From an uncultured Phycisphaerales bacterium (GTDB lineage Bacteria; Planctomycetota; Phycisphaerae; Tepidisphaerales; Tepidisphaeraceae): a stretch of DNA of 64,000 nucleotides. This document shows positions 2,903-64,000 of the stretch, piece after piece (within the stretch, counting starts at the first letter, position 1; every line of letters begins with the position of its first letter). A program made the position numbers and the translations under genes. Location of the stretch: NCBI GenBank assembly GCA_963755915.1, contig CAVWLP010000003.1, positions 992,001-1,056,000 on the forward strand. Direction: 5' to 3'. The notes beneath the pieces were generated by a model. It saw only the letters and a list, made by a program, of their open reading frames with translations. It ran no database searches and had not been told where the DNA came from.

Positions 2903-3042
2903 CCCCTCTTTATCCCCTCTCCCAGTACTCTGGGAGAGGGTTAGGGTGAGGGCCTGAAAAAATCATCGGCGCGTTTGCGCGATCCTCATTTTTACTCCGC
3001 CCTCACCCCTGCCCTCTCCCAGGGTACTGGGAGAGGGGGTAA
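2903..3042. repeat. Inverted pair of GTAC-centred palindromic repeats (REP/REPIN-like)
   Basis: CCCCTCTCCCAGTACTCTGGGAGAGGGTTAGGGTGAGGGCC (to 2954) and an inverted copy CCCTCACCCCTGCCCTCTCCCAGGGTACTGGGAGAGGGGG (2999-3042). Confidence 0.85.
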
Positions 3043-4746
3043 TTACGCCGTTACGCGGTAAATTTCTTCAAGCGTCGTTATCCCGGCCTTTACCTTCTCC
3101 ATCCCATCGCCGCGCAGGGTAATCACTCCCTGCTTCTTGGCATGAGCGCGAAGATCGTTCAGTGTCGCCCCCTGGCTGATCAGTTCGATCATCTCGTCGT
3201 CCGGTACGAGCAGCTCATAAATCCCAATGCGCCCGGTGAATCCCAGATTCCTGCACTGCTGGCACCCTTTGGCCCTGAAGAGAGTGTCGATATTTCCCGC
3301 CAACCGCTCGATCTGCCGGCGCTCGTTGGGATTCGGCGTATACGACTCCTTGCAATGCTGACAGAGTTTTCGCACCAGCCGCTGCGCCATCACGCCGACA
3401 AGCGTCGCCCCAACCAGATAAGGCTCGGTGCCAAGGTTATATAGACGCGTAATCGCACCCGGCGCATCATTCGTATGCAGCGTGCTGAGCACCAGGTGCC
3501 CCGTGAGCGCGGCCTGCGTCGCCAGTTTCGATGTCTCCATATCACGGATTTCGCCCACCATCAAAATATCCGGATCCTGCCGAAGCAGCGACCGCAGCGC
3601 CCCGGCAAACGTAAACCCGGCCTTTTCATTCACCTGAAACTGGTTGACGCCCGTAAGCGCATATTCGATGGGGTCCTCGACCGTGCAGATGTTCACCTCG
3701 GCATTGTTCAATTCCTGGAGCGACGCATAGAGCGTCGTGCTCTTGCCCGACCCCGTCGGACCCGTCACCAGTACGATGCCGTTGGGCAGACTAATCAGCT
3801 TTCGCCACGCCTTCAGCGTGTCATATTCGAACCCCAGCTTTTCCAGATTCACCGAGGCCCGCTCGTTGTCGATTATGCGGATCACGACTTTTTCGCCATG
3901 CTTCGCGGGCATGGTCGAAACGCGCAGATCGACCGGCCGCTTCTCCATCATGACGTGAATGCCGCCGTCCTGCGGCAGGCGCCTCTCCGAAATATCCAGC
4001 CCCGCCATAATCTTGATTCGGCTTGCCACGGCGGCGTGCATCTGATGCGGCGGACGTAGCTTCTCGACCAGGCAACCGTCGATCCGATAGCGAATCCGCA
4101 AAAAATTGTCTCCCGGCTCCACGTGAACGTCGCTGGCCCCTTCTTTCACCGCGTTGTAGATGACGTAATTCACCAGCTTGATGACCGGCGAATCTCCTGC
4201 CGCCGCCTCCAGGTTTACAACGTCCTGAACCGGCTGCTCGATGACGTTGAATTCCTCCGGCTCAACCTCCTCGATAATGTCGTCGATGACGAAGACCTTG
4301 TCGTTGGGCAGGTAGGCCTGGAGCGTGCTCTTGATGTCGCGCACCGTCGCCGCGACCACCTGCACCTGGTAGCCGCTCAGACGCTCGATCTCTTCCAAAA
4401 GAAATACGTTCGCCGGCTCCGGAACCGCGATCGTCAACACGCCCTCGACCAGATAAAGCGGCAGAGTCTGATGCTTCTCGAGGAAATCCTTCGGCAAAAC
4501 CTGGATGACCTTCGGGTCCGCGATCTTGGGGCTCACCCGCGCGTAGGGCACGGAATAGGCCTGCGCCAGCGTTTCCACGATCTGGTCTTCCGTGCAGAAA
4601 TGCAGCTCGACCAGCACTTCCCCCAGCAGCTTTTGATGCCCCGTGCGCTTCTGCTCATCGAGGGCGCGCTCGAGCTGCGCCTGCTGGATCAATCCCTTGC
4701 CAATCAGGAGCTGCCCCAGAGGTTTTCGTTCCATCGTGGTAACCAT
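3043..4746 (-). CDS. pilB: T2SS/T4P assembly ATPase GspE/PilB with N-terminal MshEN-like domain
   Basis: Walker A GPTGSGKST; TVEDPIEY, LRQDPD, GEIRD, TGHLVLSTLHTN; Cys4 Zn motif; N-terminal LGQLL..KGLI...L..AL..Q. Confidence 0.93.
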   Translation of the reverse strand: MVTTMERKPLGQLLIGKGLIQQAQLERALDEQKRTGHQKLLGEVLVELHFCTEDQIVETLAQAYSVPYARVSPKIADPKVIQVLPKDFLEKHQTLPLYLVEGVLTIAVPEPANVFLLEEIERLSGYQVQVVAATVRDIKSTLQAYLPNDKVFVIDDIIEEVEPEEFNVIEQPVQDVVNLEAAAGDSPVIKLVNYVIYNAVKEGASDVHVEPGDNFLRIRYRIDGCLVEKLRPPHQMHAAVASRIKIMAGLDISERRLPQDGGIHVMMEKRPVDLRVSTMPAKHGEKVVIRIIDNERASVNLEKLGFEYDTLKAWRKLISLPNGIVLVTGPTGSGKSTTLYASLQELNNAEVNICTVEDPIEYALTGVNQFQVNEKAGFTFAGALRSLLRQDPDILMVGEIRDMETSKLATQAALTGHLVLSTLHTNDAPGAITRLYNLGTEPYLVGATLVGVMAQRLVRKLCQHCKESYTPNPNERRQIERLAGNIDTLFRAKGCQQCRNLGFTGRIGIYELLVPDDEMIELISQGATLNDLRAHAKKQGVITLRGDGMEKVKAGITTLEEIYRVTA

Positions 4747-15893: not shown

Positions 15894-17162
15894 TCATTCA
15901 CTCCACGAAATAATCTTCACGCACGGCGTCGTATTCGAGCTCGCAAAATTCGGAATGTTCGTATACGCCGGGTTGTAAGTCACCGACATCTTCCCGCTGT
16001 AACTCGTAATCCCCCCTCCCGTCACCATCAGCGCCCCGTTGACGGTCAGGCTCGTCGCGCTGGTCGACGAAAGCCCCGTGATCCCACTGGTCACATAAAC
16101 CACCCCCGTCGCGTTCACCGATGCCGCGGACCCGTCCAGCGTCAATTTCGATCCCACCACGATCGCCGGATAGTTCGTCGTCAGCGTCGTCGTCACCGGC
16201 GTCACGTTCACCGCCGCGTTCACGGGCATCAGCGTCCCCGGCACAACCAACGTCCCATTAATCGTCAGCGCCTTGTTCACCGTCAGCGAACCCGTCGTAT
16301 AGTAAATCCCCAGCGGATTCGACGGCGTCGGCCCATACGAAATCGCCGAATTCACCGTCGCCCCCAACTGCGTCGCATTATATTGAACCCCCTGATACAC
16401 ATACGGCGCGGCAAAATTCGCCACCGTCCCCGAATTCGGCGAGGCCGGCGTCGTCGGCGCCCCCGAAACGCTCCCATTCGTCTGCACCGTCCCCAGGCTC
16501 ACAGAGCTCGCCTCGATATTCCCGCTCACAACCCCGCTCCCCAAAACGCCCCCCGTCGAAACCATCGCCGGCGAAGTCGAATTCGCGCTCGAAAACGTTT
16601 CCGACGCCGACAGCGTCACCGCGGTATTGAACGCCGCCGCCTGGTTGATCTGATAAGTGCTCCCCGCGCAAATCTCCGCGGTGATGGTCCGCGTCACCGC
16701 CCCACCCCCCATCGATGACCCCGACGATCCGATCGCCGTCACCGGAAAACACTCAACCCCATTTGCCCCGATCGCCGGCGCTCCCATCACGATCGTTACG
16801 CTCCCCGGAATCGTCGCCGCCGGCGAAGTTGTCGCGAACGTAATGTTGGAGGTCGTACTGTTAAAGAAATTCGCCGGCGCATCGTTTTGATTGAGAATAT
16901 AAAACATCGCCAGGTGAATCCCCGATTCCGCCTGCGCCTGCGCCGTCGCCGCTGCTACGGCATTCCCCGCCGCCGTCGCCTGCACCGCACTCCCCGACAG
17001 CATCGCATAAGCCAGTATCGTCGCCAGCGCCATCACCAAAACGACGAGCACCAGCGCAATCCCCTTCCGCCTCGCATATCCCCTCTTATCCCCTCTCCCA
17101 GTACTCTGGGAGAGGGTGAGGGTGAGGGCCGGAAAAGAAGTTTCTCGATTCGCTATGTTCAT
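15894..17162 (-). CDS. Minor pilin PilX/GspK-like with Ser/Thr-rich beta C-terminal domain
   Basis: RRKG|IALVLVVLVM (no Glu5); AQAQAESGIHLA; start coupled to the upstream stop (GGAG-TGA-GA-ATG). Confidence 0.8.
   Translation of the reverse strand: MNIANRETSFPALTLTLSQSTGRGDKRGYARRKGIALVLVVLVMALATILAYAMLSGSAVQATAAGNAVAAATAQAQAESGIHLAMFYILNQNDAPANFFNSTTSNITFATTSPAATIPGSVTIVMGAPAIGANGVECFPVTAIGSSGSSMGGGAVTRTITAEICAGSTYQINQAAAFNTAVTLSASETFSSANSTSPAMVSTGGVLGSGVVSGNIEASSVSLGTVQTNGSVSGAPTTPASPNSGTVANFAAPYVYQGVQYNATQLGATVNSAISYGPTPSNPLGIYYTTGSLTVNKALTINGTLVVPGTLMPVNAAVNVTPVTTTLTTNYPAIVVGSKLTLDGSAASVNATGVVYVTSGITGLSSTSATSLTVNGALMVTGGGITSYSGKMSVTYNPAYTNIPNFASSNTTPCVKIISWSE
17080..17130. repeat. GTAC palindromic repeat within the pilX-like leader
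   Basis: Near-identical to the 2903-2954 copy. Confidence 0.85.
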
Positions 17163-17164
17163 TC

Positions 17165-17938
17165 TCACTCCGGCTGCGTCGCCGCCGTCCTCACCGTCGT
17201 CGTGTTGTACAACGTCAAATTCGTCCCATCGCTCCTGGAAAACCCAATCGCATACTCCACCACCGGCAACTGCGTGCTCGTCCCCGCATTCCAGCTCGAA
17301 TTCACGTAAACCTGAAACCCGCTCACTTCCAGACAATCATTCACATTCGCCCCCGTTCCCGGCTCCGACCCCGGCCCCCCCAGCGACTGCTTGGCCACCC
17401 ACGATTCCCCTGGAAACGCAGCCACAAACGCCGCAAAATCGCTCTGCGACGTAAGCTGTTGCATCTGCGTCGGATCGCTCGACGAGGGCGCCGAATTCTC
17501 ATACAGCCAGATCGTCTCCGTCGTCGGGTCATACTCGATCAGCCCCATCTCCCCCAGGTAAGGATCCGTAATCGGCATTCCCGGCGTCTGAAGGCCGTAA
17601 TCCTGCCAGAAAAAAATCGACCCCGCCGTCGCCGGCGACCCCGAAATAGCCCCCGGCGCGTAATAACAAATATAATTCGCGTTCTGCAAAATCCTCTGAA
17701 TCCGCAGATACGTCTGATTCGCCTGCATCTGCGTCGAGCGCGTCAGATCCTGATCATCCCACCCCGCAGAAACCGCCGTCATGATCGCCGCCGCCCCCAT
17801 CATCACCAACGCCACAATCACCAGCCCGATGATCAGCTCAACGAGTAAAAACCCTGACCTTCTTGCTCCTCTTACCCCCTCGCCCGGTACTCCGGGAGAG
17901 GGCAGGGGTGAGGGCCGAAATCTACGGTTGAATCGCAT
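17165..17938 (-). CDS. Minor pilin PilW/GspJ-like
   Basis: RRSG|FLLVELIIGLVIV; ATG overlaps the upstream TAA (TAATG). Confidence 0.8.
   Translation of the reverse strand: MRFNRRFRPSPLPSPGVPGEGVRGARRSGFLLVELIIGLVIVALVMMGAAAIMTAVSAGWDDQDLTRSTQMQANQTYLRIQRILQNANYICYYAPGAISGSPATAGSIFFWQDYGLQTPGMPITDPYLGEMGLIEYDPTTETIWLYENSAPSSSDPTQMQQLTSQSDFAAFVAAFPGESWVAKQSLGGPGSEPGTGANVNDCLEVSGFQVYVNSSWNAGTSTQLPVVEYAIGFSRSDGTNLTLYNTTTVRTAATQPE
17868..17916. repeat. GTAC palindromic repeat within the pilW-like leader
   Basis: CCCCCTCGCCCGGTACTCCGGGAGAGGGCAGGGGTGAGGGCC. Confidence 0.85.
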
Positions 17939-18422
17939 TACTGCCTCGGAATCGGATACTGCGCCACAAACTCCGGCACCGAAATCTCCTCCCCATCCGG
18001 ACCCGTCACCAAAACCGTCACAATCCCAAAATTGCTCGCCGGCGTCGTCGCATCAATCGACGGTTGCGCCCCACGATCACCGTCACCCCACGCGAAAAAT
18101 TCTGCGAACTCGTCACATCCAGCGTCCCCCCCTCCAGCAGAGGCAACGCATTGCTCGAATCCGAATACCCATTAAACGCGCTGATGTTGGTATACGTGCT
18201 TCTCGCCCCGCTGCCGTTCCCCAGCGCATCCGACGACACAAACGGCTTGGCCACCACCTCGTCCATCAACTGCCGCGCCAGCGTCACCGCCGACGACGAT
18301 GCCGCGATCGCATCCCCCTGCTGATAGGACGATGACAACGCCCCCGCCACTCCGATCACCAGGATGACCAGAATCACCGACGCAACCAGACCCTCCAGCA
18401 GGGTAAAGCCGCGCCGCCGCAT
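17938..18422 (-). CDS. Minor pilin PilV/GspI-like (frameshift near 18065)
   Basis: MRRRG|FTLLEGLVAS; AVTLARQLMDEV; the alternative frame continues ...FGIVTVLVTGPDG...IPRQ* to TAA at 17938-17940. Confidence 0.75.
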
Positions 18423-18429
18423 CAATCGC

Positions 18430-18955
18430 TTAGTATTTTGAGTAGTCTGTTCCGGAACCATTATCGCTCACCACGTTCGCCACAAATTCCTGCGTCTGCG
18501 GCTTATAAATCCACCCCGTGGTTCCGTCGGCCTTGGGCATCGCCTGATTGTTCCCCACCATCTTGATCGTGCTTAATTGATTCAGCGGATCCACCGGCGC
18601 CTTCCCAAGATAAGGCCCATACGGATACATCGCGTTCGCCGATCGGCTCAAACGCAGGCTCACATCCGAGTACTGCGTCATCTGCGCCATGAACACATCC
18701 GGATTCGGCACCGAAGTCGGATCCCCCTCCGGATACCCCGGCGGAACATCCTGGTGCTGCGCCTTGAACACCGCGATCTGCGTCCTCAAATACTGAAGCT
18801 GGTCCGTCAGCAGGTTTAACCGGTCCTGCTGGCTCGCCACCGAAAATTGCGGAATCACCACCGTCGCCAGGATCCCCAGCACCAGCAGAATGATCACAAC
18901 CTCCACCAGCGTGAATCCGCGCACCCTCCCCCGCGCGTACGATCGACGCGCGCAT
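18430..18955 (-). CDS. GspG/PilA-like pilin paralog
   Basis: RG|FTLVEVVII; LRTQIAVFKAQH; YGPYL..PVDPLN; GWIY. Start uncertain: ATG 18955 is one frame off, and the TTG 19059 start would span a terminator. Confidence 0.78.
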
Positions 18956-19742: not shown

Positions 19743-20648
19743 TTACTGTGCCTCTATTTCCAGGCTGATGTCCAGCGCTGCGGCCGAATGCGTCAGCGCC
19801 CCCACCGAAATCCGCTCCACCCCCGTCAAGGCTATCGGACGCGTCGTCTCCAGCGTCACGCCCCCCGACGCCTCCAGCACGATCTTCCCCTTCTTCCCCG
19901 CCCGATCCCGCAGCTCCACTGCCGTCTGCATTTTCGGGCAGTCCATATTATCCAGCAAAACCACCAGGTCCCCCTCCAGTTTGAGCACCTCCCGAAACTG
20001 CTCCAGACTCTCCACCTCCACCTCGATAAACCGGTCCCGGTTCTCCTTCCGCACCTCGGCAATCTTCTGTGACAAGACCCCCGCCAGCTCCTTGATCCCA
20101 ATCCCCGCGATATGGTTCTCCTTGATCAGCATCCCATCATAAAGCCCCATCCGATGGTTATGCCCCCCGCCGCATCTGACCGCATATTTATCCAGAGCCC
20201 TTAGCCCAGGCAGCGTCTTGCGCGTGTCATAAATTTTCGCGCTCGTCCCCTCCACGCGCCTGACAAACCGCGCCGTCAGCGTCGCCACCCCGCTCAAATG
20301 CTGCAAAAAATTTAGAATCACCCGCTCCGCCGCCAGCAGCGATCTCATCGGCCCTCGAATCCGCACCAGCGGCAAAGTCCGCGCATCGCTGAACCGCCCC
20401 TCCAGAATATCCACGTGAAACCCCGGGATCGTCTCCACCCTCAACCTCTCGTCATACACCCGGCAAATCATCTCCACCAGCGGCAACCCGCACGTCACCC
20501 CCACCTCTTTCTGCAACAGCGTCCCCACCCCAATCGTCTCTTCCGGAATCATGATCCGGCTGGTCACATCATCCCCCCCCAAATCCTCTCGCCGCGCAAG
20601 CTCTACGATCTCCCTCACCTCATCAAATTTCGGAAATGCCCAATTCAT
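19743..20648 (-). CDS. nadC: Nicotinate-nucleotide pyrophosphorylase (carboxylating)
   Basis: EDLGGDDVTS, AERVILNF, DTRKTLPGLR, NHRMGLYD, LLDNM, EASGG, ISVGALTHS. Confidence 0.95.
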   Translation of the reverse strand: MNWAFPKFDEVREIVELARREDLGGDDVTSRIMIPEETIGVGTLLQKEVGVTCGLPLVEMICRVYDERLRVETIPGFHVDILEGRFSDARTLPLVRIRGPMRSLLAAERVILNFLQHLSGVATLTARFVRRVEGTSAKIYDTRKTLPGLRALDKYAVRCGGGHNHRMGLYDGMLIKENHIAGIGIKELAGVLSQKIAEVRKENRDRFIEVEVESLEQFREVLKLEGDLVVLLDNMDCPKMQTAVELRDRAGKKGKIVLEASGGVTLETTRPIALTGVERISVGALTHSAAALDISLEIEAQ

Positions 20649-20700
20649 ATTGTCCCAGCACAAGATTCTAGCCCCGCGCACAATCTTCGTCGATATTCCG

Positions 20701-20731
20701 CTCGCAACCCGCAACTCGCAACTCGCAACTT
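20701..20731. repeat. Heptamer tandem repeat (CTCGCAA)x4
   Basis: ctcgcaa cccgcaa ctcgcaa ctcgcaa in the divergent intergenic region. Confidence 0.7.
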
Positions 20732-20760
20732 TCCCCGCTAATATCCACCCCGCACAATCT

Positions 20761-22272
20761 ATGTCCATCAAGTTCGAAATCTATCGCGACGGCGCCCGCG
20801 TCACCCAGTTCATTCCCGTCGCCCCCATGGCCATGGGACCCGAAAGCGTCCCCATGCCCTCCGAGATCCTCTTCAAGGACGGACAGCTCATCGTCAATCG
20901 CGCCGACGAGCACGCCCTCGGCGTCGCCCTTCTCTGGGACGTCCCCGGCATGGGAACGCTCCACCTCGAAACCACCCGCCTCCAGCATCGTGAAAATCCC
21001 TACAACCTCAACGTCGAGCTCGCCCGCGCCCGACTCATGAAAATCGTCCAGAAGCAGGAAGACTGGAACCTCTTCGATTTCCCCAAGGCCGAAAAATTCA
21101 TCCAGCGCTTCCGCGACAGCCAGAGCCTCCTCGCCGACGCCCTCGGCCTCCTCCACCAGCCCGCCGAGGCCGCCAAGCTCGCCGACCAGTCCCTCGCCAT
21201 GTCCATCGAGCTCTCCGAGCAGCTCGCCATGTTCCACGGCGAGCTCCTCATCAACCGCCGCCGACAGACCAACGCCTTCGTCAAGCACATCGTCGGCTGC
21301 CGAATCGACCCGGTCATCCAGAACCAAAAATACAAAGACACCCTCACCGGCAGCTTCGACTACGCCATCCTCCCTGTCCGCTGGAAACAGATTCAGCCCC
21401 AGGAACACACCTTCGACGCCGGCCCCGTCGACGAATGGGCCGACCTTCTTGCCAAGAAACGAATGCCCATCATTGCCGGCCCTCTCATCGACCTCACCGA
21501 GGGCGAAGTCCCCGACTGGATGTACATCTGGGAACACGACTTCGACACCCTCCGCGAGCTCGCCTACGAATACGTCCAGAAGGTCGTCACCCGCTACCGA
21601 AAATCCGTCGCCGTCTGGAACGTCTGTGCCGGCCTCCACACCAACAGCGTCTTCACCCTCAGCTTCGAGCAAATCATCGAGCTCACGCGCCTCCTCATCG
21701 CCCAAGTCAAAACGCTGCTCCCCTCCGCCCGCACCCTGGTCACCATCAAATACCCCTTCGGCGAGCACCACTCCCGCAGCCGATCCAGCGTCCCTCCCAT
21801 GCTCTACGCCGAAATGGTCGCCCAGGCCGGCATCAACTTCGAAGCCTTCGGCCTGGAATTCGAAATGGGCATCCCCGCCCCGGGAATGTTCACCCGCGAT
21901 CTCTTCCAGTTCAGCTCCATGCTGGACAAATTCTCCACCCTCGGCAGGCCACTCTTCCTGACGAGCCTCGCCGTCCCCGGCCGATCCACCCCCGACCCCC
22001 ACGATCGCTGGGAAGGGAAAATGGACCCCATCCTCGCCGGCAAATGGAAACGCCCTTGGGACCCCGAACTCCAGGCCGAATGGCTCTCCGCCGCCTATCG
22101 ATTGGCCCTCAGCAAGCCATACGTGGAATCCATCGCCTGGGGCAATCTCGCCGACATCAACCCCACTGTCCCCGCCGGCGGCGCCCTCGACGACATGCTC
22201 AAACCCAAGCCCGCCTTCAACAAGCTCCAGGAACTGCGCGAAAACTTCCGCGTCTGGCAGCGAAAAATCTAA
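20761..22272 (+). CDS. GH10 (xylanase)-fold protein lacking catalytic glutamates
   Basis: WKQIQPQE, GPLI..VPDW, VVTRY..VAVWNV, LGRPLFLTS, GGALDDMLKPKPAF; no signal peptide. Confidence 0.7.
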   Translation: MSIKFEIYRDGARVTQFIPVAPMAMGPESVPMPSEILFKDGQLIVNRADEHALGVALLWDVPGMGTLHLETTRLQHRENPYNLNVELARARLMKIVQKQEDWNLFDFPKAEKFIQRFRDSQSLLADALGLLHQPAEAAKLADQSLAMSIELSEQLAMFHGELLINRRRQTNAFVKHIVGCRIDPVIQNQKYKDTLTGSFDYAILPVRWKQIQPQEHTFDAGPVDEWADLLAKKRMPIIAGPLIDLTEGEVPDWMYIWEHDFDTLRELAYEYVQKVVTRYRKSVAVWNVCAGLHTNSVFTLSFEQIIELTRLLIAQVKTLLPSARTLVTIKYPFGEHHSRSRSSVPPMLYAEMVAQAGINFEAFGLEFEMGIPAPGMFTRDLFQFSSMLDKFSTLGRPLFLTSLAVPGRSTPDPHDRWEGKMDPILAGKWKRPWDPELQAEWLSAAYRLALSKPYVESIAWGNLADINPTVPAGGALDDMLKPKPAFNKLQELRENFRVWQRKI

Positions 22273-56966: not shown

Positions 56967-57047
56967 GATTGCCGATTGCCGATTGCCAATTGCTGAATTA
57001 AAGGCGACCCCCTCCCCTGCCCTCCCCCGGGGTACCGGGGGCGGGGG
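56967..57047. repeat. Heptamer array plus GTAC palindrome between convergent genes
   Basis: attgccg attgccg attgcca attgctg...ccctcccccggggtaccgggggcggggg. Confidence 0.75.
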
Positions 57048-57070
57048 AAATTCAAAATCCCGTCCCGTTT

Positions 57071-58527
57071 TTATTCCTTAGACCATTGGGTGTAATTCTG
57101 CATGGCCATGTCTACGACCATGTCGATGTTGCGGTCGACTTGGTCTGGGTCGGTGGGTTGGACGATGTCTTCCATTTGTAGTTTTCGCATTTCTTCGTCG
57201 CGGCGTTGCTGGATCTGGAGGTCGCGGAGGTGGCGGGTGATGGTGTCCTGGACCTTTCGGTCGGCGAAGGCCTTGGTGCCGCCGGTGTCGCGGATGAGGA
57301 CTTTGAAGATGAAGTAGGCGTCGTGGTCGGCGATGACGTCGCTGATCTGACCGACGGGGGTTTTCCAGACGGCGTCTTCGACGTTGGTGAGGACGAAGGT
57401 GTTGGGCTTGATGACGATCTGGCCGCCGTTGCCCTGGTCGCCGACGGCGCCGGGGAGATCGTTGTCGGTTCGGCCGTACTCGGCGAAGTCTTCGCCGGCG
57501 AGGGCGCGGGCGCGGATTTTTTGGAGCTTGGCTTTGGCGGCGTCCTCGTCGCCGTTGAGCTTGTCGGGGTCGGATTCGATGAGAATGATGCTGGCCTGGG
57601 CGGGGGTGGTGAATTCGTCGATGTGGGCGGCGTAGTAGTTGCGTTCGTCATCGGCGGTGATGTCGACCTGGGGGTAGATTTTTCGGATGAGATAGAGGCG
57701 GTAGAGCCACTGGTGGTATTGGTCTTCCTCCTCGTCCTGGAAGCTTTCGCCGAATTGCTGGGCGCGGAGGCGAGCGACCTGTTCGGCGCCACCGACTTCG
57801 GCGACCTCGTGCTGCGCCCAGAGGCTGGTGAGCTGGCGGGCGAGCTGGATGTCCTTGGGGTCGAGGCTGCGTTCGGCGGCGGCGGCGGCGAGCTCGTCGT
57901 CGGTGAGGTTTTTGATGGTTCGTTCGATTTCGACGCGAGCGGCTTCCTGGAAGTCGGCGCGGTCCATTTCCTTGGCGTGCTTGCGGAGGGCGCTGGAGGC
58001 GAGGCGGAGGACCTTATCGGCGTAGATGGGATTGCCGTTGACGACGAGGACTACGCCGCCGAGGGTCATGTACTGGTCAGTTTCAAGGGAGGAGATTGGA
58101 GAGGGGTTGGTGGTGGGGACGGGAGGGCCGAGGGCGGAAGGGAGGGTGGTGGGGATTGAGGAGATGGGTGGGAGTTCGCCGACGGTGACGGGGGTTGCGG
58201 TTGAGGAGAAGGCGGAGACGTAGGGTGGAGCGTTGGATTGGCGCGGGCGTCGGGGAGGGAGGGGATTACGCCGGGCTGGTCGAGGGGGGCGATGGGGTTG
58301 GCGCCTGTGGGGGCGTGGCGGGCGTAGAATTCCTGGCTGGAGATTTGCTGGGGGCCGTTGGAGGAGCAGGAGGAAAGGCAAATCAGCGCTGTCAGAAGCA
58401 GGATGTTTGGGAGCGAGTGCAAGCCGAAGTATTTGACTGTGATTTTTTTCAGGCCCTCACCCCTACCCTCTCCCAGAGTACTGGGCGAGGGGGTAAGAGG
58501 GGGAAGTCTTTTGGGGGAATTAAACAC
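57071..58527 (-). CDS. SurA/PpiC-type peptidyl-prolyl isomerase lipoprotein (frameshifts in the Pro-rich linker)
   Basis: Lipobox LSSC; VVNGNPI; AGEDFAEY; VGQISDVI..YFIFKV. Confidence 0.75.
58452..58503. repeat. GTAC palindromic repeat at the 5' end of the SurA-like gene
   Basis: GGCCCTCACCCCTACCCTCTCCCAGAGTACTGGGCGAGGGGGTAAGAGG. Confidence 0.85.
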
Positions 58528-63262: not shown

Positions 63263-64000
63263 ATGGTTCGGCAAATTGTTCAGGTTGCGGGGCTGATTGC
63301 GATTTCTTTGATCGCGTATTTTCCGGCGCTGGGGAATGGGTTTATCTGGGATGATGACCGGTATATCGAGCAGAATTATCAGCTTCATTCGCCGGGGGGA
63401 TTGGAGCGGATTTGGACGCGGCCGCTGAGCGCGGAGCCGCAGTATTATCCGGTGACGCATACGTCGCTTTGGGTGGAATATCATTTGTGGGGGGCGAAGC
63501 CGCTGGGGTATCACCTGGATAATATTCTGCTGCACGCGCTGGGGGCGGTGATTTTGTGGAGGATTTTGCTGAGGCTGGAGATCGCGGGGGCGTGGGTGGC
63601 GGCGGCGGTTTGGGCGGTGCATCCGTTGCAGGTGGAATCGGTGGCTTGGGCGACGGAGAGAAAGAATGTATTGAGTGGGGTTTTGTATTTTTTGGCGGGG
63701 TGGGCGTATTTGCGATCCCGAGATTTCTGGTGTCCGACCCCCTCCCCTGCCCTCCCCCGGAGTACCGGGGGCGGGGGTTTGATGTTGTGGTATGTCGCGA
63801 GTTTGGTGCTTTTCATTGCGGCGTTGCTGACGAAATCGGTGACTTCTACGTTGCCTGCTGCGATTTTGATTTTGTGTTGGTGGAAGAGGGGGAGGATTTC
63901 TGTCCGGGATTTTTGTCTGTGGTTCCGATGCTGATTCTTGGGGGGGCGATGGGGAGTCTTACGGGTTGGATGGAGAAGCATGTGGTGGGGGCAATGGGGG
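63263..64000 (+). CDS. Second TMTC-like GT-C paralog (partial, runs off the window)
   Basis: WDDDRYI, QYYPV, HPLQVESVAWATERKNVL. Confidence 0.8.
63735..63777. repeat. GTAC palindromic repeat in frame within the TMTC-like gene
   Basis: Differs at about one position from 57005-57047; encodes PTPSPALPRSTGGG. Confidence 0.85.

What the first reader, a model, noticed from the sequence alone, without database searches (positions are those of the whole stretch)
17080..17916. Palindromic repeats inserted in frame into the cleavable leaders of two adjacent prepilins
Seen: the ~50-bp GTAC-centred palindrome that is intergenic at 2903-3042 lies between the start codon and the G|F or G|I cleavage site of both the PilW-like gene (RPSPLPSPGVPGEGVRG) and the PilX-like gene (ALTLTLSQSTGRGDKRG). 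The two copies are read in different frames with no stop. Both start codons are coupled to the upstream stop (TAATG; GGAG-TGA-GA-ATG), and pilW has no alternative start after the repeat. Known: prepilin peptidase removes the leader, and Rickettsia palindromic elements (RPEs) insert in frame in genes. Inference: disposable leader peptides act as a safe harbour for a mobile repeat, and the strong mRNA hairpin just after the start may lower minor-pilin translation.
Basis: partly seen in the sequence, partly recalled or inferred. Interest (0 to 1): 0.78.

Follow-up and report, generated by a model that had tools for sequence, protein, structure and literature searches.

The report
Palindromic repeats translated inside prepilin leaders
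Two neighbouring minor-pilin genes of a soil planctomycete each carry a copy of a genome-wide palindromic repeat, in frame, inside the N-terminal leader that is cut off before pilus assembly; this is a tidy new case of a known habit of such repeats, not a new kind of system.

Summary
A GTAC-centred palindrome of about 50 nt (231 nhmmer hits in the 6.6-Mb genome) lies in frame between the start codon and the G|F or G|I cleavage site of a GspJ/PilW-like and a GspK/PilX-like prepilin.

Congeneric orthologs lacking it have 10-18-aa leaders that open with the same residues (MRFN..., MN.NR...). The upstream ATGs are therefore ancestral and the repeat sits inside the leader. The sister species has both insertions in frame. 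Public metagenome contigs confirm the sequence and show that the nearby pilV-like frameshift is an assembly error.

Between the two species the mature parts are under purifying selection (dN/dS 0.17 and 0.32), while the leaders drift (1.26 and 0.71).

The "safe harbour" idea is only partly supported. The same repeat sits in frame in valyl-tRNA synthetase, a PMT_2 glycosyltransferase and other genes, as Rickettsia palindromic elements and intragenic REPs do. Enrichment in prepilin leaders is weak: 5 of 73, crude p = 0.005, or 0.10 for the three strong copies. In other species of the genus the PilW-like leader hosts a second dispersed palindrome family in frame. Two further families lie at the same gene junction, but their translation is not forced.

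Any hairpin effect on translation is untested.

The parts
17868..17919 (-). Repeat copy inside the PilW/GspJ-like leader. It encodes ...FRPSPLPSPGVPGEGVRG...
   Evidence: nhmmer E 1.1e-15. RNA hairpin -25.6 kcal/mol, z -1.15. X1 contig matches 17452-17895 with no gap.
17081..17133 (-). Repeat copy inside the PilX/GspK-like leader. It encodes ...FPALTLTLSQSTGRGDKRG...
   Evidence: nhmmer E 6.1e-13. RNA hairpin -31.7 kcal/mol, z -3.5, 0 of 200 shuffles as stable. X1 contig matches 16800-17136 with no gap.
17852..17938 (-). 29-codon leader of the PilW/GspJ-like prepilin, from the ATG to Gly-1
   Evidence: Sequence. MRFN start shared with [T/C]TG-RFN... orthologs. dN/dS 1.26 against G001.
17165..17851 (-). 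Mature PilW/GspJ-like minor prepilin (FLLVELIIG...) plus stop codon
   Evidence: Orthologs in 13 other genomes at E<=1e-39. Weak NCBIfam N-terminal hits only, no Pfam hit. dN/dS 0.169.
17061..17162 (-). 34-codon leader of the PilX/GspK-like prepilin, from the ATG to Gly-1
   Evidence: Sequence. MN.NR start shared with orthologs. dN/dS 0.71.
15894..17060 (-). Mature PilX/GspK-like minor prepilin (IALVLVV..., no Glu5) plus stop codon
   Evidence: NCBIfam T2SS_GspK, 31 bits (below the cut-off of 130), residues 33-95 on profile positions 2-64. Orthologs. dN/dS 0.319.
17938..18461 (-). PilV/GspI-like prepilin. It appears frameshifted in the window, but one C is missing behind 18068. The true stop TAA overlaps the pilW ATG (TAATG).
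   Evidence: N_methyl and PilV hits. Extra C in contigs of X1, X5 and X6. The other frame reads on to the TAA.
2906..3044 (.). Intergenic inverted doublet of the same repeat (2906-2957 minus, 2999-3044 plus), REPIN-like
   Evidence: nhmmer E 1.8e-13 for each copy. Lies between two minus-strand ORFs. 19 of 20 adjacent pairs genome-wide are inverted.
58449..58501 (+). Another strong copy, in open frame with the 5' end of a lipoprotein-like minus-strand ORF. A GTG start after the repeat is available, so translation is not forced.
   Evidence: nhmmer E 7e-16. Context.

Best explanation
A dispersed, GC-rich, GTAC-centred palindromic element of about 50-57 nt has colonised this genome. Its consensus is TCAAGGCCCTCACCCCAGCCCTCTCCCGGAGTACCGGGAGAGGGGGTAAGAGGGG. 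It is REP/REPIN-like in organisation and RPE-like in behaviour.

Because it is stop-free in four to five of its six frames, copies that land in frame in tolerant parts of genes survive. Two such copies landed before the split of G000 and its sister species G001. They sit in the leader-coding segments of two translationally coupled minor prepilin genes, one GspJ/PilW-like and one GspK/PilX-like. This lengthened ancestral leaders of about 10-15 aa to 29 and 34 aa.

The copies are translated from the ancestral ATGs as part of the class III signal peptide. They lie upstream of the retained RR(S/K)G cleavage context. They are presumably removed with the leader by the prepilin peptidase, so the mature pilins are unchanged and the insertion is effectively neutral.

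Shown: the in-frame position, ancestry of the starts, persistence in two species, neutral drift of the leader against constraint on the mature part, and in-frame copies in other genes.

Inferred: cleavage of the long leaders, neutrality, and the mode of mobilisation.
For: - Family size and structure: 231 hits; 19 of 20 adjacent pairs are inverted doublets.
- pilW has no start codon between the repeat and G|F.
- Orthologs without the repeat begin the same way. PilW-like: TTG/CTG-RFN(F/S)(F/S)RRRG|F in G009, G004 and G012. PilX-like: MNANRPIRPSSRRRG|IAL in G010, MSTNRP... in G003, MKPNRP... in G008.
- G001 carries both insertions in frame: MVRCNFGIQPPPLPSPGVPGAGVRGARRSG|F and MMMGKCETTCVPAPTLTLPRSTRGGGKRGNARRSG|I.
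- Contigs from other studies (X5, X6; a strain about 94% alike) show the repeat in both leaders. Their extra letters at 17851-17861 sum to 6, which keeps the frame.
- dN/dS, mature against leader: 0.169 against 1.26 for pilW, 0.319 against 0.71 for pilX.
- A Peptidase_A24 gene is present, 75.5 bits.
- In-frame copies elsewhere: a doublet in ValRS just before the KMSKS loop in G000 and in the short-read genome G004, with one recognisable arm left in G001; a G000-only insertion splitting the PMT_2 domain, absent in G001 and 9 other congeners; 11 of 231 by a strict coding-frame test.
Against: - No protein or RNA evidence shows that the long leaders are made or cleaved.
- The window comes from an assembly with indel errors. 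One is proven at 18068, and the genome scores 81% complete with 3 contigs.
- The stretch 17896-17938 of the pilW leader is confirmed only by the window and by G001, itself an error-prone assembly. No unique contig spans it.
- For pilX, in-frame ATT, CTG and GTG codons at or just after the cleavage site could in principle start a leaderless protein.
- The G001 pilX gene is split into two frames further downstream.
- My coding-frame classifier mis-assigned both pilin copies and missed ValRS, so the census is rough.
Confidence: 0.75

Rival explanations
1. The hairpins are selected, not merely tolerated. In an operon whose genes overlap stop-to-start, the leader-coding segment is the only place for a REP-type RNA element. 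Such an element could punctuate mRNA decay or damp translation of the downstream minor pilins and so set their stoichiometry.
For: - The pilV-pilW junction or leader carries dispersed palindromes of different families in different species. The GTAC family is in G000 and G001. The CGCCCACGGC...GCCGTGGG family sits in frame in G008 and G003 (24-57 exact copies per genome, 0 in controls). A low-copy TCTCTGCGCC... family abuts the start in G009, G004 and G012. A heptamer palindrome occurs in G020 (115 matches, 0 in control).
- The T-to-C change in the left arm of the G001 pilW copy is matched by A-to-G in the right arm (sequences).
- The pilX copy folds at -31.7 kcal/mol, z -3.5. In the 131-nt fold the GGAG upstream of the ATG is paired.
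Against: - The leaders drift neutrally.
- The pilX leader has no insertion in 12 of the 14 genus orthologs read.
- The pilW hairpin is no more stable than shuffles (z -1.15). The stems start 25-34 nt after the ATG, outside the initiation footprint.
- The paired change in G001 may be conversion from the CCCTCCCCC...GGGGAGGGG subfamily seen.
- The junction was chosen post hoc.
Confidence: 0.15
2. The repeats are intercistronic and untranslated. The real starts lie downstream, and the long upstream open frames are by-products of a stop-poor repeat.
For: - Most copies near 5' ends in this genome do have a start right after the repeat, for example C2:2991575 (MAYLLGIDVGTSG...), C2:127733 and C2:4508730.
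- The passages read from Di Nocera et al. 2013 (PMC3733652) say many N-terminal REPs are probably extragenic.
- For pilX, an out-of-frame ATG exists at about 17077.
Against: - pilW has no in-frame start of any usual kind before G|F. The next GTG lies inside the hydrophobic helix, after F1 and E5.
- The first residues are conserved with repeat-free orthologs.
- The X1 contig shows no indel across 16800-17136.
- The frame is preserved in G001 and in the X5/X6 strain.
Confidence: 0.06
3. The insertions inactivated the two genes, or they are assembly artefacts. On this view the locus is decaying or mis-assembled.
For: - There is a proven one-base assembly error 130 nt upstream, at 18068.
- Short-read contigs break at the repeats and make chimeric joints between the two copies (table 5).
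- G001 pilX is split into two frames.
Against: - The mature parts are under purifying selection: dN/dS 0.169 over 226 codons and 0.319 over 185 codons.
- Both ORFs are intact in G000.
- The repeats are present at both sites in contigs from two other studies.
Confidence: 0.04

Closest known systems
Rickettsia palindromic elements (RPE) and intragenic REPs (Di Nocera et al. 2013, PMC3733652; abstract and passages read)
   Same: - A dispersed short palindrome found both between genes and in frame inside genes, including a tRNA synthetase. The paper reports REPs in tRNA synthetases of other species.
- Inserts of about 17-30 aa; dimers occur.
- The paper notes that many copies lie at ORF N-termini, and that R. 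conorii proteins with N-terminal RPE-1 are expressed.
   Different: - The sequence is unrelated as far as I can see. The consensus has no GTAG or CGTC tag (read).
- The host is a Tepidisphaerales-type planctomycete (record titles).
- For pilW the N-terminal copy is demonstrably inside the translated region. Both copies lie in segments that are removed after translation, a location not found in the searches.
REP / REPIN elements mobilised by RAYT transposases
   Same: - A GC-rich hairpin in hundreds of copies.
- 19 of 20 adjacent pairs are inverted doublets, with spacers mostly 16-42 nt.
- Copies sit mostly between genes or at gene ends.
- The genome encodes two Y1_Tnp homologues, one of which resembles RAYT.
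   Different: - About 50 nt rather than 20-40 nt.
- Neither Y1 gene is flanked by this repeat. Within 15 kb there are no family hits (E<=1e-3) around one gene and only two weak ones, 9.5 and 12 kb away, around the other. The --max scans 2.5 kb each side gave only a chance-level fragment (E 8.8).
- The RAYT-like ORF scores 56.8 bits, below the cut-off of 80.
- No tetranucleotide tag.
Enterobacterial small mobile sequences and MITEs found intragenically (Delihas 2007 PMC2759123; 2011 PMC3184786; search listings and abstracts only)
   Same: Small non-autonomous repeats that carry open frames and occur inside genes, adding peptides.
   Different: No terminal inverted repeats with target-site duplication could be defined here. 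The G000/G001 filled-versus-empty comparison in the PMT_2 gene gave a net +54 nt but fuzzy borders.
Long leaders of type IVb prepilins
   Same: Leaders of about 25-30 aa are processed by prepilin peptidases (from my own knowledge, not from a call). The 29- and 34-aa leaders here fall in or near that range and keep basic residues and Gly at -1.
   Different: Here the length comes from a recent repeat insertion into a short leader of a minor pilin or pseudopilin. It is not a conserved family trait: orthologs have 10-18 aa.

Membership tests
In-frame palindromic repeats of the RPE / intragenic-REP kind | Dispersed multicopy palindrome | tested here: met
   231 nhmmer hits, 109 of them at E<1e-8. 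Hairpin of -26 to -32 kcal/mol.
In-frame palindromic repeats of the RPE / intragenic-REP kind | Copies inside bona fide genes that keep the reading frame, with homology on both sides | tested here: met
   ValRS alignment. PMT_2 and ketoacyl-synthase alignments. Pfam domains in 10 of 11 spanning ORFs scanned, lying on both sides of the repeat or across it in most. 11 of 231 by the strict frame test.
In-frame palindromic repeats of the RPE / intragenic-REP kind | Sequence relationship to described RPE or GTAG/CGTC REP families | tested here: not met
   The consensus contains neither GTAG nor CGTC at an end. No Rfam family reaches its gathering score. No direct comparison with RPE sequences was made.
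REP/REPIN with RAYT | Inverted doublets at a fixed short spacing | tested here: met
   20 adjacent pairs under 150 bp, 19 in inverted (-+) orientation. Spacers cluster at 16-22 and 31-42 nt.
REP/REPIN with RAYT | A cognate RAYT gene flanked by the repeat | tested here: not met
   Two Y1_Tnp hits (57.4 and 30.5 bits). Neither is flanked by the repeat: within 15 kb there is no family hit around one gene and only two weak hits, 9.5 and 12 kb away, around the other; the --max scans 2.5 kb each side gave only E 8.8. REP_Tyr_transpos scores 56.8 bits, below the cut-off of 80.
MITE | Terminal inverted repeats plus target-site duplication, seen at filled-versus-empty sites | tested here: inconclusive
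   The PMT_2 site is filled in G000 and empty in G001. Net difference 54 nt, but the flanks have diverged and no duplication could be read.
Class III (prepilin) signal peptide | Gly or Ala at -1, hydrophobic +1, Glu at +5, then a hydrophobic helix | tested here: met
   pilW-like: G|FLLVELIIGLVIV. The pilX-like protein has G|IALVLVV without Glu5, as in the GspK profile it weakly matches. In this genome's 72 motif ORFs, -1 is Gly or Ala.
Class III (prepilin) signal peptide | Cleavage by a prepilin peptidase | not testable with these tools
   A Peptidase_A24 gene exists (75.5 bits). Processing of the 29- and 34-aa leaders is inferred.
GspJ/PilW and GspK/PilX minor pilins | Match to the curated family models above their cut-offs | tested here: not met
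   No Pfam hit for either protein. NCBIfam T2SS_GspK scores 31 bits against a cut-off of 130. PpdC-like and Verru_Chthon C score about 19 bits. The names rest on gene order (GspG/H-like, PilV-like, these two, GspH-like, PilM), on size and on the N-termini.

The most novel reading that the evidence does not exclude
In tightly coupled pilin or pseudopilin operons, the disposable leader-coding segments may act as surrogate intergenic regions. They would repeatedly capture, and perhaps keep under selection, REP-type hairpins from several unrelated palindrome families. That would give the cell an intra-operon handle on mRNA decay or on translation of the minor pilins without touching the mature proteins. 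The pilV-pilW junction of this genus, occupied by up to four different palindrome families in different species, would be the first example.
Probability: 0.15. Interest if true: 0.65.

Novelty: new member of a known kind. Interest (0 to 1): 0.42.

Why it matters
The locus settles, for one clear case, a question that earlier surveys left open: whether palindromic repeats at the N-termini of ORFs are translated or merely lie upstream of the true start.

For pilW the answer is firm. The start and first residues are ancestral and there is no downstream start. For pilX the same ortholog evidence applies, though in-frame ATT, CTG and GTG codons at the cleavage site leave a small doubt. In both genes the encoded peptide lies in a segment that is discarded.

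This has practical use for annotating Planctomycetota. Gene callers may trim or misplace such starts, and repeat-encoded peptides such as PSPLPSPGVPGEG or ALTPTLSRSTGRGG recur in predicted proteins.

It also shows that an RPE-like habit exists in free-living soil Tepidisphaerales. That habit is in-frame palindromes in essential genes such as ValRS. If the hairpins proved to be selected at operon junctions, it would link REP biology to pilin stoichiometry.

Tried and rejected
- Crude codon-usage gene caller. It missed pilW and pilV, so I replaced it with a hexamer frame model. That model is 97.8% correct on 60-codon windows, but training and test data were the same.
- Script error and a minus-strand coordinate bug, both fixed.
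- Coordinate slip, corrected.
- Target-site duplication. The G000/G001 DNA alignment at the PMT_2 site gave no clean borders.
- RAYT association. Neither Y1 gene is flanked by the repeat.
- Ortholog of the third repeat-bearing prepilin (DUF1559 protein at C2:1687937). 0 of 5 congeners matched at E<=1e-60, so its ancestral leader could not be read.
- Rfam. Only three sub-threshold miRNA or sRNA look-alikes.
- Generalisation scan. The pattern GTAC-arm plus FTLVEL codons matched in 2 of 41 genomes of the family. It was not normalised for each genome's repeat load, so it is weak evidence either way.
- Metagenome contigs. No unique contig spans 17896-17953 or 17137-17151, because contigs break at the repeats.
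- Literature. Searches found no paper placing a REP-like repeat in a prepilin leader or signal peptide. The supplements of PMC3733652 (its list of intragenic REPs) were not opened and could hold such a case.
Full report
**What is in the sequence**

The genes of the finding lie on the minus strand. ORF 17165..17938 begins MRFNRRFRPSPLPSPGVPGEGVRGARRSG|FLLVELIIGLVIV. From the ATG at 17162, ORF 15894..17162 begins MNIANRETSFPALTLTLSQSTGRGDKRGYARRKG|IALVLVVLVMAL.

I built a profile from 72 seed copies and ran it over the whole genome (G000: 6.63 Mb, 3 contigs, 59% G+C). It gives 231 hits at E<=1e-3, of which 109 are at E<1e-8. Its consensus is TCAAGGCCCTCACCCCAGCCCTCTCCCGGAGTACCGGGAGAGGGGGTAAGAGGGG.

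In the window the hits are:
- 17868-17919 and 17081-17133, inside the two leaders;
- 2906-2957 and 2999-3044, an inverted doublet that fills the gap between two minus-strand ORFs;
- 58449-58501;
- two weak copies at 57011-57052 and 63742-63784.

**Are the repeats really translated?**

For the PilW-like gene, the in-frame codons between the repeat and G|F are GTA AGA GGA GCA AGA AGG TCA GGG. None is a start codon of any usual kind. The next GTG lies inside the hydrophobic helix.

The stronger argument comes from orthologs (24 of 41 related genomes match; 14 loci, G000 included, at E<=1e-39). PilW-like leaders without this repeat read as follows:
- G010: MRKLFVTQSQTTSHAKRG|F
- G011: MRQMFVTQLEKGSKRG|F
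- G009: TTG-RFNFFRRRG|F
- G004 and G012: CTG-RFNSSRRRG|F

The last group shares the opening [A/T/C]TG CGN TTC AAY (MRFN) with G000.

PilX-like leaders in repeat-free congeners read MNANRPIRPSSRRRG|IAL (G010), MSTNRPIRALSRRRG|IAL (G003), MKPNRPTRDWSRRGG|IAL (G008) and MNTQFPIRNRSRRRG|IAL (G011). The G000 start MNIANR... is therefore the ancestral one. The repeat lies between it and the retained ARRKG|I.

The sister species G001 has 93% amino-acid identity in PilW. It has both insertions in frame, with diverged repeat sequence and a one-codon indel.

**Is the assembly trustworthy here?**

G000 scores only 81% complete with 3 contigs, and G001 66% with 5. That is typical of assemblies with indel errors. 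One error is proven: contigs of X1, X5 and X6, the 3 runs that cover the place (X2 does not), have an extra C behind 18068. This repairs the apparent frameshift of the PilV-like gene and makes its TAA overlap the pilW ATG (TAATG).

Across the finding itself:
- An X1 contig matches 16800-17136 with no gap. This covers the pilX cleavage site and the whole repeat.
- Another X1 contig matches 17452-17895 with no gap.
- Contigs from two other studies (X5, X6; a strain about 94% alike) show the repeat at both sites. Their extra letters at 17851-17861 sum to six, which keeps the frame.
- The stretch 17896-17938 rests on the window and on G001 only. It matches the family consensus in length.

**Are the genes alive?**

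Between G000 and G001, dN/dS is 0.169 for the mature PilW-like part (226 codons) and 1.26 for its leader (29 codons). It is 0.319 for the first 185 mature PilX-like codons and 0.71 for its leader (34 codons).

The mature proteins are constrained and the leaders drift. This fits a translated but disposable segment. A Peptidase_A24 gene is present. Cleavage itself is inferred.

**What the repeat is**

Twenty pairs of copies lie within 150 bp of each other. Nineteen of these are inverted, with spacers mostly 16-42 nt, which is REPIN-like.

By a hexamer frame model, the 231 copies divide as follows:
- 80 have no coding sequence on either side;
- 61 follow a gene;
- 49 precede one;
- 30 lie between two coding regions;
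- 11 lie in frame inside one.

The last figure is a lower bound. The model mis-assigned both pilin copies and missed ValRS.

Pfam scans and ortholog alignments confirm real in-frame insertions:
- A doublet in valyl-tRNA synthetase between ...MLGMYNMG and GIPFHHVYIH, just before the KMSKS loop. It is present in G000 and in the short-read genome G004; in G001 only one arm is still recognisable. G003 and G010 carry a different insert at the same spot.
- A G000-only insertion that splits the PMT_2 domain, absent from G001 and from 9 other congeners.
- An insertion in a ketoacyl synthase.
- Two GT41 paralogs with a copy at the same linker, an ABC ATPase, a GluQRS-like protein and an M19 dipeptidase.

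The element is stop-free in most frames. Two copies read in different frames are therefore expected, not remarkable.

Two Y1-transposase homologues exist, one of them RAYT-like, but neither is flanked by this repeat. No target duplication could be read. Mobilisation remains open.

**Is the leader a preferred harbour?**

In G000, 5 of 73 prepilin-type genes carry the family in or next to the leader. The 73 are 72 motif ORFs plus the PilX-like gene. The five are the two of the finding, a DUF1559 protein at C2:1687937 (where the repeat abuts A|FTLVELL), and two with degenerate copies.

I compared this with 75 copy-and-orientation cases that abut coding sequence, among about 4,848 crude genes. The odds ratio is 4.9 (Fisher p = 0.005). 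With the three strong copies only it is 2.8 (p = 0.10). The test is post hoc and the gene set is crude. A pattern scan found the arrangement in only 2 of 41 genomes of the family, and in G059 a GTG start follows the repeat.

On the other hand, the PilW-like leader or the junction before it hosts other dispersed palindromes in other species:
- CGCCCACGGC...GCCGTGGG sits in frame in G008 and G003. It has 24-57 exact copies in each of five genomes and 0 in the reversed controls.
- A low-copy TCTCTGCGCC... family abuts the start in G009, G004 and G012. It has 4-13 copies against 0-6 in controls, so this is weak.
- A heptamer palindrome occurs in G020, with 115 matches and 0 in the control. A TTG start inside it makes translation of the whole element uncertain.

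The site is clearly tolerant and repeatedly hit. Whether it is selected is open.

**Hairpin effect**

The pilX copy folds at -31.7 kcal/mol (z -3.5). The pilW copy folds at -25.6 kcal/mol (z -1.15), no better than shuffles. The stems begin about 34 and 25 nt after the A of the ATG. Any effect on translation is untested.

**Comparison with what is known**

In-frame intragenic REPs and RPEs are described in Di Nocera et al. 2013 (PMC3733652; abstract and passages read). This includes N-terminal copies whose translation is doubtful, and copies in tRNA synthetases. Intragenic small mobile sequences are described by Delihas (listings and abstracts only).

Five literature searches found nothing on such repeats in prepilin leaders or signal peptides. 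I did not open the supplements of PMC3733652.

I therefore file this as a new member of a known kind with a neat, well-resolved location. It is not a new system.

One ortholog row (G014) comes from an unpublished genome.

Noticed in passing
window 18060-18075 (PilV-like gene 17938-18461, minus strand): Apparent frameshift. Contigs of X1, X5 and X6 all have one more C behind 18068, so this is an assembly indel error and the gene is intact. The genome probably holds more such errors (81% complete with 3 contigs).
   Followed up: yes
G000 C2:1763112-1766129 (L028), minus strand: Valyl-tRNA synthetase carries an inverted doublet of the repeat in frame just before the KMSKS loop. The doublet is also in G004 (one arm in G001). 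G003 and G010 have a different insert (PPQSGGL...SPPLCGGS) at the same spot.
   Followed up: partly
G000 C2:3010815 (L029) and C3:436858: Two TPR/GT41 glycosyltransferase paralogs carry a copy of the repeat at the same linker position, before ...RLRIGY(L/V)SP.... Either the insertion predates the duplication or the site was hit twice.
   Followed up: no
G000 C3:1125007-1125798 (L045): RAYT-like Y1 transposase ORF (HWH...YQGRF; REP_Tyr_transpos 56.8 bits, below cut-off). Short sequences encoding TGTQL lie on both sides. They may be its own REP, and they differ from the GTAC palindrome.
   Followed up: partly
window about 20700-20730 (C3:1012711-1012728): A copy of a second kind of repeat, built of TTGCGAG heptamers in inverted arrays (read as LATRNSQLAT / ELRVAS). 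It lies at the 5' end of ORF 20551..22272. The family has 10 matches in G000, 67 in G001 and 115 in G020.
   Followed up: partly
G000 C2:1687889-1687937 (L033): A DUF1559 / H-X9-DG prepilin whose repeat copy directly abuts the mature N-terminus (…GEGEKA|FTLVELLVV). The repeat's own 3' end supplies the -1 Ala and -2 Lys. No close ortholog was found in 5 congeners.
   Followed up: partly
G000 C2:3481505 and C2:3486360: Two prepilin-type ORFs with no start codon within 70 codons of the cleavage site. Their upstream open frames share a motif RGLRP.(L/F)RGVPPAAVR. One of them has 12 genome-wide blastn hits, so this may be another repeat in a leader.
   Followed up: no
L128: One exact match to the repeat core lies in a MAG labelled Bacillota, among otherwise planctomycete records. 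Possibly a binning contaminant.
   Followed up: no
G000 C2:2588039: A prepilin-type ORF is preceded in the same open frame by a PEP-CTERM-like motif (PEPGGVALVAIGVLGVMRRKR). The 36 blastn hits of its leader region probably reflect that motif's paralogs.
   Followed up: no
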